From the IMG/VR virus record IMGVR_UViG_3300035181_002522, positions 64,001-128,000 of that record: a DNA stretch of 64,000 nucleotides. One strand, given 5' to 3'. Source of the DNA: a virus. The notes beneath the pieces were generated by a model. It saw only the letters and a list, made by a program, of their open reading frames with translations, did no database searches and was not told the origin of the DNA. Of this stretch, positions 39,086 through 48,421 are shown piece after piece (the stretch's first letter is position 1; every line of letters starts with the position of its first letter). Both the position numbers and the translations under genes were made by a program.

Positions 39086-39287
39086 AAAACCAGATGGTAA
39101 GTTAGTCTTTATAGTTGCTCTTATCGGCGGCGTAATAATTGCAGGTGCATCATATCAGGTCATTCATTCGTTTAAACCTAACCCTGACCCACAGTGTCTT
39201 GCGGCTTTAGTCGTAACATCAGATAATTGGTGGGAGCAATCGCCTGAACCAGAATGTACGCCAAACTTTGTTGATAATAAACACTGA
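39078..39287 (+). CDS. small membrane protein
   Basis: N-terminal TM segment. Confidence 0.5.
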   Translation: MAEKPDGKLVFIVALIGGVIIAGASYQVIHSFKPNPDPQCLAALVVTSDNWWEQSPEPECTPNFVDNKH

Positions 39288-39405
39288 CTTTGTAAGCTCA
39301 TGGGTAGAGCTCCCATACGAGGGTAGGAGTTGGTTCAATTCCAATGAAAGAATGGTTCCCGTAAATCCGCAATGGGGAGAGTAGGTTCGAATCCTACCAA
39401 AGTCA
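39286..39405 (+). ncRNA. tRNA-like RNA with ~55-nt structured insert replacing the anticodon loop
   Basis: acceptor GACTTTG/CAAAGTC, D arm GCTC..GAGC, T arm GTAGG-TTCGAAT-CCTAC; insert carries a second T-loop hairpin. Confidence 0.75.
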
Positions 39406-42916: not shown

Positions 42917-43921
42917 ATGCTCATAGCAATAACTGGTCGAATGGCGATTGGAAAATCAACCATTATTCAAAATATGTCACTGTCAGTACCGCACGTGAAA
43001 TTTGACCTTGATAAAGCCGCGCACAAATATAGTCAAAGTGCTGATATTCAAGAATTTATTGAAAGCAATCGAAGTACTGTTGATCAGACAACCAAAGACA
43101 TTTGTTGGAAAAATATTTTTAGTGAATCAAACAAATATCGGCAGTTTTGCGCGTTATATGAACCATACCTAATAAAGGAAGTTCAGGAAATAATTCATTT
43201 TTATCAATTCAGTGACGCCATAAAGATTGTTGAAGCTTCAGCACTGTACGCATATCCAAAATTACGACAGCTGTTTGATGCTGTTATTGAACTTGGCACT
43301 ACCGCAGAATCACGAGAAGAAAATATTGAAAGTCGAGCTGATTTAGCTAATGAACGGTTTAAAGTTGAAATTGCTGACGCGCTGTACGTCTCTTGTGGCA
43401 CTGACTTTCTTAATATTGGGCTCGGAAAAAATCCAAGTATGATTCTGAGTAAGCTAATCACAAAACTCTACAGAAGATTAAATGGACAACATGTTTCTAG
43501 AGCGTATTTTTGCGGCTCATTTGAACCAATGACTATCGGCCATTATGATATTTACGAGCGGGCCTGTGAAATGTTCGATGAGGTTATCTTTGTAAAAGCT
43601 AAGAACCCCAGCAAGTCAGACACTCTCAGAGAATCGCCTAAATACTTACAGTTAGTTACTACAACCTATATTCCAACGTTGCTCAGAGGTGAGTCTGGTG
43701 TCACTAATCTAATACGTGGTGTAAGGACGGAAAAAGATTATGTCGAAGCGATAGAATGGTTTCGTTCAATTGAAATCATTGTTGGTAGTGGTAAAGTGGA
43801 ATTGATATTGTTGCCTGCTTCTAAAGAGCTTGAAAATGTAAGTTCGACCTTTGTTAGAGCTCTTGAAAAATTATCTGAAAACGATGCGAAACGGTTTATT
43901 GTGCCTAATCATTTTGCCTAA
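42917..43921 (+). CDS. coaE-coaD: dephospho-CoA kinase - phosphopantetheine adenylyltransferase fusion (CoaE-CoaD)
   Basis: N-terminal IAITGRMAIGKST P-loop and DLDK; C-terminal GSFEPMTIGH, LIRGVR, VSSTFVR. Confidence 0.8.
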   Translation: MLIAITGRMAIGKSTIIQNMSLSVPHVKFDLDKAAHKYSQSADIQEFIESNRSTVDQTTKDICWKNIFSESNKYRQFCALYEPYLIKEVQEIIHFYQFSDAIKIVEASALYAYPKLRQLFDAVIELGTTAESREENIESRADLANERFKVEIADALYVSCGTDFLNIGLGKNPSMILSKLITKLYRRLNGQHVSRAYFCGSFEPMTIGHYDIYERACEMFDEVIFVKAKNPSKSDTLRESPKYLQLVTTTYIPTLLRGESGVTNLIRGVRTEKDYVEAIEWFRSIEIIVGSGKVELILLPASKELENVSSTFVRALEKLSENDAKRFIVPNHFA

Positions 43922-44359: not shown

Positions 44360-44575
44360 ATGAGTGACAGTATTTTAATGATGTTTGCTATGTTGTTAGC
44401 AATTACTTTTATTGCTAACATTGTTTTTTGTATAATTGAGCTTCATAATCTATTGAAAGCCAAAGTTCAAAAAGCACGGTTGGAAGTCGATGAACTCTTA
44501 CATTGTAAAAATAGAGAATTGGGAAAAATATTCCTAACTTTTTGGGTCCGGTACGCGAATTGGTTCAGCGGGTAA
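44360..44575 (+). CDS. small membrane protein
   Basis: TM helix, GAGG RBS; 3' end overlaps the RNA gene at 44544. Confidence 0.45.
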   Translation: MSDSILMMFAMLLAITFIANIVFCIIELHNLLKAKVQKARLEVDELLHCKNRELGKIFLTFWVRYANWFSG

Positions 44576-44674
44576 AAACGTGGTTTGCATTTTTTGTCAG
44601 TAATGACCGCTCGTAAATCGTTATCGTGTCCGTAAAACACCTGTATGTGGGTTCGAGTCCCACCCGGCCCACCA
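44544..44674 (+). ncRNA. tRNA-like RNA (GTA loop, CCA end) carrying the conserved insert module
   Basis: acceptor, D arm, T arm and CCA present; ~52-nt insert between D arm and anticodon hairpin. Confidence 0.85.
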
Positions 44675-44680
44675 AATTAT

Positions 44681-44810
44681 GACACTATAGCTCAGTTGGT
44701 AGAGCACCTAAACATCGTTTTCAATTTTTTGCTAGAAATAGCCGACTAGAAAATGGTTATCGTCATTTGGAGACACTGTATGTGGGTTCGAGTCCCACCT
44801 GCCTTCTCAA
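44681..44810 (+). ncRNA. tRNA-like RNA carrying the conserved insert module (acceptor stem decayed)
   Basis: canonical D arm AGCTCAGTTGGTAGAGC, insert module, T arm identical to that of the preceding RNA. Confidence 0.75.
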
Positions 44811-44823
44811 CTTTATTAAGCAT

Positions 44824-45162
44824 ATGCTAATTACTGTTTTAAAATCAAAGCTACATCATGTTACCGTCACTGAAGCTGATATTAATTATGTTGGTTCATG
44901 TGCAATTGATGTAGAATTATTAGAAGCTGCTGAAATTCAAGAAAATGAGCAAATTCACATCTATAATGTGAATAATGGCGAACGTTTTACCACGTATGCC
45001 ATCGCTTCTGCAATTCCTGGAATTATCTCAGTTAGGGGTTCCGCCACTAGAAAAGTAGTGGTTGGAGATACCTTGATAATTACCGCTTTTGGCCAAATTA
45101 CCAAAGGCGAAATTTATAGACCAAATATCGTTTTTGTTAATAGTAAAAATCTCATAACATAA
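44824..45162 (+). CDS. panD: aspartate 1-decarboxylase
   Basis: LKSKLH..TVTEADINYVGS (Gly-Ser autocleavage site), NVNNGERFTTYAI. Confidence 0.93.
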   Translation: MLITVLKSKLHHVTVTEADINYVGSCAIDVELLEAAEIQENEQIHIYNVNNGERFTTYAIASAIPGIISVRGSATRKVVVGDTLIITAFGQITKGEIYRPNIVFVNSKNLIT

Positions 45163-45175
45163 AAGAGGAATAGAA

Positions 45176-45940
45176 ATGCCTAAACTACATGAAGTGCTCG
45201 CAGTTGAAAAAACTCGTGCAAATGCAGCAACAAAATTGCTCGACGAAACTGCAACAAAATTTCGTAAAGAACATTTTTTTGCTGGCCACATCAAAACTTT
45301 GAGAATGCTGGCTGATAGCCCTGCGAATGCTGCTATTGAAGCTGCATCTCGCGACGACAAAGCTTTGCCAACAACCGTTCCAGAAACTCTAGAATACGCT
45401 CTGAAATTCTGGGCAGATGCTGAAGACGTTACATTCGCAAAAAATCGCACAAATCAAATCGCTAATGCTGATCTTCTGTTTCATGGCGCCGTTTTAGTTC
45501 CTAATGTTCCGGTTGACGAGTTGCTCGGCCTGGAAGTTCGTTTGGAAAAGTTGCGTCATGTTATCGATGCAATGCCAATCTTGGATGCTTCTAGAGAGTG
45601 GTCTCTTTCAAGCTCTGGTCGTAAAGGCGAATATGTTTCAGTTACTTCCGAAGTAACCTCAAAAACTGAAAAAGTTTCTACTCCGGTTATCTTGTACGAA
45701 GCAACCGATCATCATCCCGCGCAAATCCAAGTTGTTAATACCGACAAAGTCGTTGGTACCTTTACCAAACTGTTAATCTCTGGTGCTGCATCTTCAAAAC
45801 AAAAAGCAGATGCGATTTCCACCATTGACGAATTGCTGGTAGAAGTAAAACAAGCACGTCAGCGTGCTAACAGCGTTGAAATCATCAACGAAAAAATCGG
45901 TTCAACCATCACCGATCTAATTTTGGCAGCGTTTAAATAA
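45176..45940 (+). CDS. conserved helical hypothetical protein next to the double tRNA-mimic RNA
   Basis: KLHEVLAVEK, LYEATDHHPAQ, VKQARQRAN; codon usage like highly expressed genes. Confidence 0.75.
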   Translation: MPKLHEVLAVEKTRANAATKLLDETATKFRKEHFFAGHIKTLRMLADSPANAAIEAASRDDKALPTTVPETLEYALKFWADAEDVTFAKNRTNQIANADLLFHGAVLVPNVPVDELLGLEVRLEKLRHVIDAMPILDASREWSLSSSGRKGEYVSVTSEVTSKTEKVSTPVILYEATDHHPAQIQVVNTDKVVGTFTKLLISGAASSKQKADAISTIDELLVEVKQARQRANSVEIINEKIGSTITDLILAAFK

Positions 45941-46161
45941 TGAAAGAGCTATCGTTACCGCAAGGAACTAAAATTCTCTGCGGTAACGGGCATTTAGTTG
46001 CTGTATTGAATAGGTCTCTTTATCGAGGAGACACTGATTACAGTGATGCTTTTGATTATGCTGAAGGTCAAATGCTTCCAACAAAAGGTCAATTATGTCC
46101 ACTTCATTGTCATTGTGGAAGTGTATGGCTTGACAAATTTAAATGCGTTAAAATTGAATAA
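45940..46161 (+). CDS. small Cys/His-rich protein
   Basis: CGNGH, CHCG; coupled to the upstream gene. Confidence 0.55.
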   Translation: MKELSLPQGTKILCGNGHLVAVLNRSLYRGDTDYSDAFDYAEGQMLPTKGQLCPLHCHCGSVWLDKFKCVKIE

Positions 46162-46199
46162 AACAGTTTCTTTTTGAATGCTATTGTGATAATATAGCT

Positions 46200-46615
46200 T
46201 CAAGTTAAAAGTTTGAGCCATCCTTATAATTATTTTTATTTTGAAATTGCGTTAAATTGCCTGCTGGTTCGAGTCCAGCTCCACATACAGAGAGCTTAAT
46301 AAGTTTTCTGTATGTGGATAGGAGAATTGGTATATCCCAAGATCTTTAAGAACTCATATGGAGTCGATCTTGTGTAATTTAAAGTGAGCCTTTTTAATCT
46401 TCGTATCGCTCAACATACGTAGACTAGAAGTAAAGTTTTAACAACAAATACGGTCTTCTCATTCATTAAATGAGAACTGGAAGTCGCGGGTTCAAATCCC
46501 GTCCCGACGGCAATTGATTTTAGAAATAGAGTTAATTGCCGTCGGGTAGCTCAGTGGTTAGAGTGCCAGTAAAATAACATCGTCATCATCGTAGGTTGTT
46601 TGATTAAAACTTGAA
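46200..46615 (+). ncRNA. structured RNA with two circularly permuted tRNA-like domains
   Basis: T arm -> closed acceptor hairpin -> D arm at 46263-46337 and 46476-46570, each within closing stems; TG-n-TAATAT upstream. Confidence 0.85.
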
Positions 46616-46629
46616 AGAATATCATTCTT

Positions 46630-46672
46630 AATGCCCGCCTAGAATATAGGAAATTTGGACTTTGCGGGCATT
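46630..46672 (+). terminator. hairpin downstream of the double tRNA-mimic RNA
   Basis: AATGCCCGC...GCGGGCATT. Confidence 0.4.
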
Positions 46673-46844
46673 CTATAAAAGAGCTTTTAACTGAAAGTTT
46701 TTTTATAGAATGATAACATTAAGGATATAATATGTCAATATTACGAATTGCTACAGCACTTATATAAGTGCTGTATGGTTTGATGGCATACATTTTTAAT
46801 ATTGACGTTAAGAAACAAGCTGAAAAAGAAGAGAAAAAATAATT

Positions 46845-46970
46845 GCCGGTATAGTTTAATGGTAGAACTGCCAAAAAACATCGTTTACATTTTTTGTTAG
46901 CAATAACCGCTAGTAAATGGTTATCCATTCCAAGGGGAAGATCGTGGTTCGATTCCACGTGCCGGCTCCA
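46845..46970 (+). ncRNA. tRNA-Gly(TCC)-like RNA (CCA end) carrying the conserved insert module
   Basis: acceptor GCCGGTA/TGCCGGC, U discriminator, loop ATTCCAA, insert module. Confidence 0.85.
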
Positions 46971-48303: not shown

Positions 48304-48421
48304 GGGATAGTGACGGAATTGGTATACGTACAAGACTTTTTCAAGAACTTGAAACTATTCAAGTTCTTCTGAAAATCTTGCGGCTTCGGCCATGTGGGTT
48401 CGAGTCCCACCTATCCCACCA
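48304..48421 (+). tRNA. tRNA-Leu(TAA) interrupted by a 33-nt hairpin in the anticodon
   Basis: Leu-type D loop and long variable arm, CCA; removing 48339-48371 gives loop CT-TAA-AA. Confidence 0.85.

What the first reader, a model, noticed from the sequence alone, without database searches (positions are those of the whole stretch)
45176..46672. ~410-nt RNA with two circularly permuted tRNA mimics, next to a conserved unknown protein
Seen, domain 1: GCTGG-TTCGAGT-CCAGC, a long closed acceptor hairpin TCCACATACAGAGAGCTTA/TAAGTTTTCTGTATGTGGA, D arm TAGGAGAATTGGTATATCC, closed by AAATTGCG/TGTAATTT and TTGAGC/GCTCAA. Domain 2: ACTGG..GCGGG-TTCAAAT-CCCGT, a 20-bp GAAA-capped acceptor CCCGACGGCAATTGATTTTA/TAGAGTTAATTGCCGTCGGG, D arm TAGCTCAGTGGTTAGAGT, CCAGT, closed by AAGTTTTAA/TTAAAACTT and AACAAC/GTTGTT. 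There is no anticodon or CCA, so it cannot decode. It has its own extended -10 and a downstream hairpin, and lacks the TTATC module, so it is a separate class. I recall homologs of the 254-aa protein (45176-45940) being followed by tRNA-like non-coding sequence in bacteria (unverified). Inference: an undescribed protein-RNA ribonucleoprotein.
Basis: partly seen in the sequence, partly recalled or inferred. Interest (0 to 1): 0.85.

Follow-up and report, generated by a model that had tools for sequence, protein, structure and literature searches.

The report
Two-headed tRNA-mimic RNA beside DUF7873
A giant phage carries a roughly 470-base folded RNA with two back-to-front tRNA look-alikes. It lies just after a gene for an unknown protein (DUF7873), and the same gene-RNA pair recurs in many phages and bacteria, so the two probably act together in an undescribed way.

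Summary
Window 46203-46672 folds far better than shuffles (z -8). It holds two circularly permuted tRNA-like modules in the order T arm, loop-closed acceptor hairpin, D arm.

The same RNA follows the DUF7873 gene on the same strand in 16 of 16 phage loci and 14 of 16 assessable MAG loci that I examined. On a six-sequence alignment, 84% of cells pair (37-44% with slid partners) and 49 pairs show compensatory changes. Across 44 modules A14 is invariant and the tertiary 15:48 pair switches between G:C (22) and A:U (19).

The modules are of the YrlA (Y RNA) type, but this is not a standard YrlA. Rfam scores only the core (29 bits against a cut-off of 69), the Ro60-binding motif is absent, and the phage's Ro60 gene lies 50 kb away on the other strand. 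Seven of eight complete phages with the pair have no Ro60.

Most relatives keep a 7-bp acceptor stem followed by N-CCA. This copy has lost it and has continuous 18- and 20-bp helices.

DUF7873 has no recognisable fold or family, and binding is untested. The scan flagged this family before on other DNA (142 notes, at least 91 genomes). I found it in neither Rfam nor the searchable literature.

The parts
45176..45940 (+). DUF7873 protein gene (254 aa), the conserved neighbour of the RNA
   Evidence: Pfam PF25283 E 5e-69. The family has 2,268 clusters at 50% identity, all single-domain and about 250 aa. AF2 model pLDDT 84, with no convincing structural match.
45940..46161 (+). Small Cys/His-rich ORF (73 aa) between the gene and the RNA; a variable insert, not part of the conserved pair
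   Evidence: Same ORF in the 90%-identical relative L014. Other loci carry unrelated ORFs or none at this place. No family hit.
46185..46195 (+). Extended -10-like promoter element (TGnGATAAT/TAATAT); the RNA 5' end is inferred near 46203
   Evidence: Read from the sequence. L014 has TGATATAAT at the same distance from UGAGCC. Not detected by the -35-dependent scan. Inferred.
46213..46218 (+). 5' leader UUGAGC that pairs with the loop of the central hairpin (46408-46413)
   Evidence: RNAalifold pairs and counts: 89% paired, 3 pairs with compensatory change.
46253..46344 (+). Module 1: permuted tRNA-like domain. T arm 46263-79, closed 18-bp acceptor hairpin 46280-318, 3-bp D stem of class II (Leu-like) type 46319-38, A15:U48.
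   Evidence: Model R1 58.8 bits, E 1e-10. Acceptor helix 94% paired with 11 covarying pairs. Tertiary positions.
46338..46372 (+). Extra hairpin after the D arm of module 1 (CAAGAUC...GAUCUUG), at the position of an anticodon arm
   Evidence: Read from the sequence. A hairpin of variable sequence sits at this place in relatives. Not tested for covariation.
46399..46430 (+). Conserved central hairpin CUUCGUAUCGCUCAACAUACGU...GAAG
   Evidence: Near-identical in L010, L014, L017 and L019. Outer stem 86% paired; the inner stem is conserved without variation.
46433..46441 (+). 5' strand of the outer helix that closes module 2 (pairs with 46604-46612)
   Evidence: 74% paired, 3 pairs with compensatory change.
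46476..46571 (+). Module 2: permuted tRNA-like domain. ACUGG/CCAGU closing stem, T arm 46486-502, closed 20-bp acceptor hairpin 46503-46, class I D arm 46547-65, G15:C48.
   Evidence: R1 85.7 bits. Rfam YrlA core positions 23-85, 29 bits. Helices 96-100% paired with covariation.
46604..46612 (+). 3' strand of the outer helix that closes module 2 (UUAAAACUU, pairs with 46433-46441)
   Evidence: Same helix as 46433-46441: 74% paired, 3 pairs with compensatory change.
46630..46672 (+). 3' hairpin AAUGCCCGC...GCGGGCAUU, the likely 3' boundary
   Evidence: 89% paired with 5 covarying pairs. Not followed by a U run, so it was not called a terminator.
46669..46712 (+). Second AU-rich hairpin (CAUUCUAUAAAA...UUUUUAUAGAAUG); an alternative 3' end
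   Evidence: Read from the sequence. Conserved in L010.

Best explanation
Window 46203-46672 encodes a stand-alone structured non-coding RNA of about 470 nt. It belongs to a widespread RNA family that is not in Rfam.

Architecture: the RNA carries two YrlA-type, circularly permuted tRNA-like domains, one class II (Leu-like) and one class I. They are held on a scaffold made of a 5' leader paired to a conserved central hairpin loop, long-range closing helices and a 3' hairpin.

Shown: both domains adopt the tRNA L-shape, judged from covarying helices and a covarying 15:48 tertiary pair. The family is genetically coupled to the DUF7873 gene immediately upstream.

Inferred mechanism: DUF7873 binds the non-tRNA scaffold (leader, central hairpin, YUUAUC-type motifs). 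The resulting particle presents two tRNA elbows and acceptor arms to proteins that recognise tRNA shape rather than the anticodon, such as RNase P, the CCA-adding enzyme, modification enzymes, the ribosome or tRNA-directed toxins. In phages, where the pair sits inside tRNA gene clusters, it would act as a scaffold or decoy that protects or manages the phage tRNA supply, without needing Ro60.

Most relatives have a 7-bp acceptor stem plus N-CCA, which should allow RNase P cleavage as shown for M. smegmatis YrlA. This copy has sealed both acceptor arms into 18-20-bp helices, so it probably stays uncut.
For: Real RNA:
- Fold z -8.0.
- 97 proposed pairs are 83.9% paired, against 37-44% for slid partners. 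49 pairs show compensatory change, against 7-18 for slid partners and 0 of 500 shuffles reaching the observed value.

tRNA-like fold, over 44 modules:
- A14 in 44 of 44 and U8 in 42 of 44.
- 15:48 is G:C in 22 and A:U in 19, with 3 other. The neighbouring position 16 shows no such rule.
- The YrlA core matches in Rfam.

Linkage to DUF7873:
- Modules lie 0.05-0.7 kb downstream on the same strand in 8 metagenomic phage loci.
- The same holds in 8 cultured phages: phiRSL1, FBKp24, RHph_TM30, Mimi, D497, Fryberger, GodonK and Pam2.
- In 14 of 16 assessable MAG loci a model R1 hit with E below 1e-6 lies downstream, and no hit that strong lies upstream or on the other strand in those MAG loci.
- Flanking protein genes are not conserved, so the pair is self-contained.

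Independence from Ro60:
- No TROVE in 7 of 8 complete phage genomes that carry the pair.
- In RHph_TM30 the Ro60 gene has its own adjacent YrlA-type modules, apart from the DUF7873-linked RNA.
- The GNCGAAN0-1G motif is absent in 11 of 12 RNAs.

RNase P precedent: M. smegmatis YrlA with a 7-bp acceptor stem is cut by RNase P and carries CCA in vivo (PMC4201824).
Against: - No datum here shows a transcript, a protein-RNA contact or any activity.
- DUF7873 is slightly acidic (median pI 6.0) and has no recognised RNA-binding fold.
- Its conserved His/Asp/Glu residues would fit an enzyme as well as a binder.
- Adjacency could reflect shared regulation or co-mobility rather than binding.
My own samples do not show that weakness, but they are small (32 loci).
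- This phage does encode Ro60 and has no other YrlA-like module, so Ro60 binding is not excluded in this genome.
Confidence: 0.5

Rival explanations
1. It is this phage's Y RNA. The two tRNA-like heads belong to a YrlA-class RNA that works with the phage-encoded Ro60/Rsr protein, tethering it to an exoribonuclease as in Deinococcus and Salmonella. DUF7873 would be an unrelated neighbour or an accessory.
For: - The phage encodes a 530-aa Rsr: TROVE 143 bits, NF041674 E 2e-129.
- Module 2 matches the YrlA core.
- No YrlA-like module lies within 3.5 kb of rsr, even with filters off (best 7 bits).
- The same model finds rsr-adjacent modules in Gordonia phage Trax and Rhizobium phage TM30 at 40-47 bits.
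- The only such modules in the 164 kb held are the two in this RNA.
Against: - The RNA is 50 kb from rsr and on the opposite strand, whereas YrlA lies within 4 kb on the same strand (PMC4201824).
- The Ro60-binding motif GNCGAAN0-1G is absent.
- Rfam matches only model positions 23-85 and not the Ro-binding stem.
- The family occurs in 7 complete phages without TROVE.
- TM30 has both systems side by side.
- About half of this phage genome is missing (CheckV 46%). A 450-nt structured leader (z -3) and a repeat array next to rsr could hold its own RNA partner.
Confidence: 0.12
2. It is a precursor of split, CCA-ended tRNA-like molecules. RNase P and 3' trimming open the acceptor hairpins. The heads are then charged (module 1 by LeuRS, which ignores the anticodon) and act in translation rescue or as aminoacyl donors, like a two-piece tmRNA or a permuted tRNA gene.
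For: - In relatives the acceptor stem is exactly 7 bp and is followed by N-CCA in 23 of 44 modules and by N-CCU in 7 of 44, against about 1 in 64 expected by chance.
- The module 1 discriminator position is A in every phage-locus copy parsed. Its D arm reads like tRNA-Leu (GCGGAAUUGGUAGACGC in FBKp24 and L021) with A15:U48. The LeuRS identity rules are from my own knowledge.
- There are weak Rfam hits to the permuted beta-proteobacterial tmRNA model over T arm, acceptor and loop.
- M. smegmatis YrlA is cut by RNase P and carries CCA.
Against: - This copy has no CCA (A-CAG and G-CAA follow the first 7 bp). Its acceptor arms continue as perfect 18- and 20-bp helices with no single-stranded leader or trailer for RNase P.
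- There is no anticodon loop. ARAGORN finds neither a tRNA nor a tmRNA here.
- There is no G3:U70 pair.
- In most relatives the CCA is base-paired to UGG in an extension helix of conserved length (hairpin about 43-45 nt), which argues for a structural role rather than a disposable spacer.
Confidence: 0.1
3. The RNA works without DUF7873. It would be a stand-alone tRNA-shaped sponge or decoy, or a stabilising or processing element of tRNA-cluster transcripts. The neighbouring gene would merely be co-inherited or regulated by it.
For: - In phages the pair always sits in or beside tRNA clusters.
- The tRNA fold itself is nuclease-resistant, an idea discussed for Y RNAs in PMC4201824.
- The protein shows no RNA-binding signature.
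Against: - The order and strand (gene, then RNA) are kept across proteobacterial, actinobacterial and cyanobacterial phages and in diverse MAGs, while every other neighbour changes. That is hard to explain without a functional tie.
- The RNA appears to have its own promoter here, and unrelated ORFs can be inserted between gene and RNA. A simple 3'-UTR role is therefore unlikely.
Confidence: 0.2

Closest known systems
YrlA (Y RNA-like A, Rfam RF02553) with Ro60/Rsr; Chen et al. 2014, PMC4201824
   Same: The module topology is identical: variable region, T arm, loop-closed acceptor stem, two linker bases, D arm, closing stem. The tRNA tertiary nucleotides are the same, including a 15:48 pair that switches between G:C and A:U. 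YrlA also occurs in phages, and some members have long acceptor stems.
   Different: - Two modules sit in one RNA of about 470 nt, against 80-150 nt for YrlA.
- There is no GNCGAAN0-1G motif and no Ro-binding stem.
- The RNA is not next to rsr and mostly occurs in genomes without rsr.
- Its fixed neighbour is DUF7873.
- It has extra conserved elements: a leader paired to the central-hairpin loop, and YUUAUC motifs.
M. smegmatis YrlA processing by RNase P and CCA addition (PMC4201824)
   Same: Relatives of this RNA have the same 7-bp acceptor stem that makes M. smegmatis YrlA an RNase P substrate. Here the CCA is even encoded.
   Different: The window's copy has lost CCA and the helix discontinuity. 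No cleavage data exist for any member.
Two-piece (circularly permuted) tmRNA genes of alpha- and beta-proteobacteria and cyanobacteria (Rfam RF01850 and relatives)
   Same: The gene order is T arm, 3' acceptor strand, CCA, intervening loop, 5' acceptor strand. Weak Rfam hits fall over exactly that part.
   Different: There is no tag reading frame, no G3:U70 and no pseudoknot series, and a true D arm is present. ARAGORN finds no tmRNA.
Circularly permuted tRNA genes of Cyanidioschyzon merolae and other algae (own knowledge)
   Same: The 3' half is encoded before the 5' half, joined through the acceptor ends.
   Different: Those genes mature into normal decoding tRNAs through a circular intermediate and the splicing endonuclease. 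Here there is no anticodon loop, and the open ends are built into a larger conserved scaffold.
SPFH/Band-7 module with a 'novel tRNA-like molecule' (Burroughs and Aravind 2016, NAR 44:8525).
   Same: The idea of a Ro60-independent tRNA-like RNA paired with a different scaffold protein in RNA-repair or conflict systems.
   Different: DUF7873 shows no Band_7 similarity (no Pfam hit at E up to 5 in 43 members; no SPFH chain among the fold matches). No Band_7 or RtcB gene lies in the 164 kb held. I could not check whether their RNA is this RNA.

Membership tests
YrlA (Rfam RF02553) | tRNA-like domain in the order T arm, loop-closed acceptor stem, D arm, with tRNA tertiary nucleotides | tested here: met
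   Both modules have it. A14 and U8 are present, and 15:48 is A:U in module 1 and G:C in module 2. Rfam aligns module 2 to model positions 23-85.
YrlA (Rfam RF02553) | Score at or above Rfam's gathering cut-off (69 bits) over the whole model | tested here: not met
   29 bits over the core only; module 1 is not reported. Caveat: rsr-adjacent phage YrlA candidates also score below the cut-off, at 37-44 bits.
YrlA (Rfam RF02553) | GNCGAAN0-1G motif near the 5' end (proposed Ro60 contact) | tested here: not met
   Absent from 46190-46720 and from 10 of 11 relatives. The one match is at chance level.
YrlA (Rfam RF02553) | Encoded within about 4 kb of rsr on the same strand | tested here: not met
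   rsr lies at G000:C1:59069-60661 on the minus strand. The RNA lies at about 110.2-110.7 kb on the plus strand.
YrlA (Rfam RF02553) | Bound by Ro60/Rsr | not testable with these tools
   Needs immunoprecipitation or a gel shift.
DUF7873-linked double tRNA-mimic RNA (uncurated family seen in this scan) | Lies within about 1 kb downstream of a DUF7873 gene on the same strand | tested here: met
   The gene ends at 45940 and the RNA starts near 46203. The same arrangement holds in 30 of 32 assessable loci.
DUF7873-linked double tRNA-mimic RNA (uncurated family seen in this scan) | Two permuted modules plus leader/central-hairpin pairing and a 3' hairpin | tested here: met
DUF7873-linked double tRNA-mimic RNA (uncurated family seen in this scan) | 7-bp acceptor stem followed by N-CCA or N-CCU (majority feature) | tested here: not met
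   This copy and its closest relative L014 read A-CAG and G-CAA and form continuous 18- and 20-bp helices. This is a derived state, not grounds for exclusion.
Functional or permuted tRNA gene | Anticodon stem with a 7-nt loop; detectable by tRNA finders | tested here: not met
   ARAGORN and the Rfam tRNA model report nothing at 46200-46680. The closing stems lead into the scaffold, not into a loop.
tmRNA (one- or two-piece) | tmRNA call by ARAGORN or Rfam; G3:U70; tag reading frame | tested here: not met
   No ARAGORN tmRNA. Rfam tmRNA fragments score 9-25 bits against cut-offs of 47-84. Position 3:70 is U:A in module 2 and G:C in module 1 (read). I did not look for a tag frame.
Pfam DUF7873 (PF25283), for the protein | Whole-length match above the curated cut-off (27 bits) | tested here: met
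   233 bits, E 5e-69, residues 1-250.
SPFH/Band-7 scaffold proteins, for the protein | Band_7 domain by sequence or fold | tested here: inconclusive
   No Band_7 hit at E up to 5 in 43 members. No SPFH chain among the listed structural matches. Absence from such lists does not exclude a distant relationship.

The most novel reading that the evidence does not exclude
DUF7873 and the two-headed RNA form a Ro60-independent ribonucleoprotein of a new kind. It would dock two tRNA-shaped heads onto tRNA-handling machinery (RNase P, the CCA enzyme, the ribosome or tRNA-directed toxins). Phages would carry it inside their tRNA clusters to protect or manage translation during infection. In this particular phage, which also has Ro60 but no YrlA next to it, the same RNA might bridge the two systems.
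Probability: 0.3. Interest if true: 0.85.

Novelty: new variant of a known kind. Interest (0 to 1): 0.68.

Why it matters
Bacterial tRNA-mimicking Y RNAs are known only as partners of Ro60, and even their function is poorly understood. Here the same RNA shape, doubled and set in a larger scaffold, travels with a different protein family. That family is large (about 2,300 clusters at 50% identity) and uncharacterised. It occurs in phages of Proteobacteria, Actinobacteria and Cyanobacteria and in diverse metagenome-assembled genomes, usually where no Ro60 exists.

If the two bind, this is a widespread new RNA-protein particle. It would be directly testable in cultured systems such as Ralstonia phage phiRSL1, Klebsiella phage FBKp24 and the Gordonia and Arthrobacter phages. 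It would also give DUF7873 a first functional handle.

The encoded 7-bp acceptor plus CCA in most members raises the further testable idea of RNase P processing and charging.

This window adds two points:
- A clade that has sealed both acceptor arms.
- A genome that holds both Ro60 and the DUF7873 pair, 50 kb apart.

Tried and rejected
- Complex prediction (DUF7873 homodimer) was unavailable, so nothing was folded.
- Foldseek against the PDB and BFVD gave no match at E 0.001 or better. A few Cas7/RAMP rows at E 0.01-0.06 with TM about 0.1 are noise level.
- VIA-align against 48,161 chains gave only generic helical-bundle matches, best Z 8.9.
- The fold library 'atlas' was not on the machine. 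The protein-atlas feature search scored 0.81 at best, which is chance level.
- PHROGs, PADLOC, NCBIfam and PDB sequence searches found nothing for DUF7873.
- No longer fused forms were found, which is weak evidence.
- A per-sequence RNAduplex test of the closing helices against shuffles did not discriminate (z mostly between -2 and +1). Long AU-rich flanks always find some duplex, so I dropped it in favour of column counts.
- An exact search for the central-hairpin motif in IMG/VR found only one near relative's contig.
- blastn of the region against cultured phages found nothing.
- Papers: there is no hit for 'DUF7873'. Burroughs and Aravind 2016 and Sim et al. 2020 are not held, so the nearest printed idea (SPFH plus a tRNA-like RNA) could not be compared in detail.
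- The repeated units upstream of rsr fold weakly (z -0.8 to -2.2), so I do not call them Y RNAs.
- I considered a type III toxin-antitoxin-like pair and set it aside. The RNA is not repetitive, lies downstream of the gene, and the protein has no PADLOC hit.
Full report
**Setting.** The window is bases 64001-128000 of a 164-kb virus record that CheckV rates 46% complete, so this is a jumbo phage. The finding lies in a region dense with tRNA genes and tRNA-like elements. Upstream are a cytidylyltransferase/CoaE-like gene and panD. Then come the 254-aa gene at 45176-45940, a 73-aa ORF, and about 0.5 kb without ORFs.

**The observation.** The stretch 46200-46680 folds at -149.4 kcal/mol against -104.7 +/- 5.6 for dinucleotide shuffles, z -8.0. 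Two units have the order T arm, hairpin-closed acceptor stem, two linker bases, D arm.
- Module 1 spans 46253-46344.
- Module 2 spans 46476-46571.
- Neither ARAGORN nor the Rfam tRNA model calls them.
- Rfam's only relevant hit is YrlA (RF02553) on module 2: model positions 23-85 of 114, 29 bits against a cut-off of 69, E 3e-4 within the region.

So the stretch does not fully match any Rfam family, but its modules have a known topology.

**Conservation and structure.** The 254-aa protein is Pfam DUF7873, E 5e-69. I fetched loci around homologs at 90% down to 30% identity.
- Eight metagenomic phage contigs have one or two modules 0.05-0.7 kb downstream on the same strand.
- So do eight cultured phages: Ralstonia phiRSL1, Klebsiella FBKp24, Rhizobium RHph_TM30, Arthrobacter Mimi, Vibrio D497, Gordonia Fryberger and GodonK, and Pseudanabaena Pam2.
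- Thirteen of these 16 have two modules.
- A blind scan of one genome per prokaryotic species returned 18 MAG loci. Sixteen of them have downstream DNA. Fourteen carry a hit of my module model R1 with E below 1e-6, 60-250 nt after the gene. One has only weak hits and one has none. In those MAG loci no hit that strong lies upstream or on the opposite strand.
- In the tRNA-dense flanks of some phage loci, weaker R1 hits (33-43 bits) occur elsewhere on the same strand; the one I could check (L025 545-616) sits at a junction of tandem tRNAs, a false positive that Chen et al. predicted.
- Neighbouring proteins are not conserved. They include gp32 and UvsX in one locus, a SNF2 helicase, a transposase and a FUSC transporter in others.

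On a six-sequence alignment, RNAalifold predicts 63 pairs, 36 of them with compensatory change. For my fuller 97-pair model:
- 83.9% of cells pair, against 37-44% when partners are slid by 1-3 columns.
- 49 pairs have compensatory changes, against 7-18 for slid partners.
- No shuffle out of 500 reaches the observed values.

Well-supported helices are both T arms, both acceptor hairpins, both D stems, the ACUGG/CCAGU stem, the outer helices of module 2, the 3' hairpin, and the pairing of the leader UUGAGC with the loop of the conserved central hairpin. Relatives have a helix there in another register, so I leave it open.

**tRNA-like tertiary fold.** I counted positions from the acceptor 5' strand in 44 modules from 29 loci.
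- A14 is invariant and U8 is present in 42.
- The Levitt pair 15:48 is G:C in 22, A:U in 19 and something else in 3.
- Position 16 shows no such relation.
- This is the same argument Chen et al. used for YrlA.

Module 1 has a 3-bp D stem and a long D loop of the class II type, reading GCGGAAUUGGUAGACGC in several relatives. It has A15:U48 and, in every phage-locus copy parsed, A at the discriminator position. Module 2 looks like a class I tRNA.

In most relatives the acceptor stem is exactly 7 bp and is followed by N-CCA (23 of 44 modules) or N-CCU (7 of 44). An extension helix then pairs CCA with UGG, and the whole hairpin of module 2 keeps a length of about 43-45 nt. The window's copy and its closest relative read A-CAG and G-CAA instead, and form uninterrupted 18- and 20-bp helices. 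M. smegmatis YrlA, which has a 7-bp acceptor stem, is cut by RNase P and carries CCA in vivo. Many family members should therefore be RNase P substrates. This copy probably is not. All of this is inference.

**Relation to Ro60.**
- This phage encodes Rsr (TROVE; NF041674 E 2e-129), 50 kb upstream on the other strand.
- Model R1 finds rsr-adjacent modules in Gordonia phage Trax (40 bits) and Rhizobium phage TM30 (47 and 46.5 bits). It finds nothing above 7 bits within 3.5 kb of this phage's rsr, even with filters off.
- In the 164 kb held, the only strong hits are the two modules of this RNA.
- Against a Ro60 partnership in general, seven of eight complete phage genomes carrying the DUF7873-RNA pair have no TROVE.
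- TM30 has both systems, each with its own RNA.
- The proposed Ro60 contact motif GNCGAAN0-1G is missing.

**The protein.** DUF7873 forms 2,268 clusters at 50% identity, nearly all single-domain proteins of about 245-265 residues. No longer fusions were found. The AlphaFold model (pLDDT 84) has long N- and C-terminal helices packed against a sheet with a long hairpin. Foldseek and VIA-align give only generic matches. The protein is mildly acidic, and it has invariant H5, E6, E83, D84, H180, D218, R228 and R230. That pattern fits an enzyme as well as a binder. It has no hit in PHROGs, PADLOC, NCBIfam or Band_7.

**Reading.**
- I am confident (about 0.95) that this is a real, conserved, structured RNA of a family tied to DUF7873.
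- I give about even odds that the two form a particle.
- I give about 0.2-0.3 to the specific scaffold or decoy role on tRNA-handling machinery.
- Rivals: a Y RNA for the phage Ro60 (0.12), a precursor of charged split tRNA-like pieces (0.10), and a protein-independent RNA (0.20).

**Earlier work of this scan.** The same gene-RNA pair was reported before on other DNA: 142 notes in at least 91 genomes. I re-derived the linkage, the structure and the Ro60 independence from my own loci.

**Published literature.** I found no description of the pair.

Noticed in passing
window 44546-44675, 44686-44812, 46845-46967; also 39286-39405 and 48304-48418: tRNA-like genes with insertions of 33-60 nt that ARAGORN misses and Rfam's tRNA model scores at 38-46 bits with a long insert. 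Three share an insert of about 50 nt between the D arm and a possible anticodon hairpin. The insert starts AAAACAUCGU, much like the AAAAUAACAUCGUCAUC that follows module 2 of the RNA, and ends GGUUAUC.
   Followed up: partly
G000:C1:59069-60661 (- strand) = L004 9069-10661: The phage encodes a Ro60/Rsr homolog (530 aa). No YrlA-like module lies near it. A 450-nt leader (L004 10662-11110, minus strand) folds at z -3.0.
   Followed up: partly
L004 11805-13061 (- strand), upstream of rsr: A repeat array of about 1.2 kb (periods about 376-410). It contains about eight copies of a unit of about 80 nt ending in GACAAGACCCUUAGUCUGUC. The units fold only weakly (z -0.8 to -2.2). Function unknown.
   Followed up: partly
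L046 39-114 and 626-704 (Rhizobium phage RHph_TM30); L048 4997-5075 (Gordonia phage Trax): Permuted tRNA-like modules lie directly upstream of the Ro-like genes of these cultured phages. They are probably YrlA-type Y RNAs, below Rfam's cut-off (37-44 bits). TM30 carries these and, 6 kb away, the DUF7873-linked RNA.
   Followed up: partly
L024 5018-5097 (Klebsiella phage FBKp24, NC_061421.1 46041-46120): The record's 'tRNA-OTHER / tRNA-Sup-TTA' overlaps module 2 of the DUF7873-linked RNA, so it is probably a misannotation of the mimic.
   Followed up: partly
window 42917-43921 and 44767-45162: The phage carries a cytidylyltransferase/dephospho-CoA-kinase-like gene and an aspartate decarboxylase (panD). 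These are unusual coenzyme A pathway genes for a phage.
   Followed up: no
window 45940-46161: A 73-aa Cys/His-rich ORF (CGNGH ... CPLHCHCG) overlaps the DUF7873 stop codon by ATGA. It is conserved only in the closest relative and may be a small zinc-binding protein.
   Followed up: no
L023 4895-4956, L024 5070-5132: Weak Rfam hits (about 25 bits) to the permuted beta-proteobacterial tmRNA model cover T arm, 3' acceptor strand, CCA and loop. This reflects the shared permuted layout.
   Followed up: no
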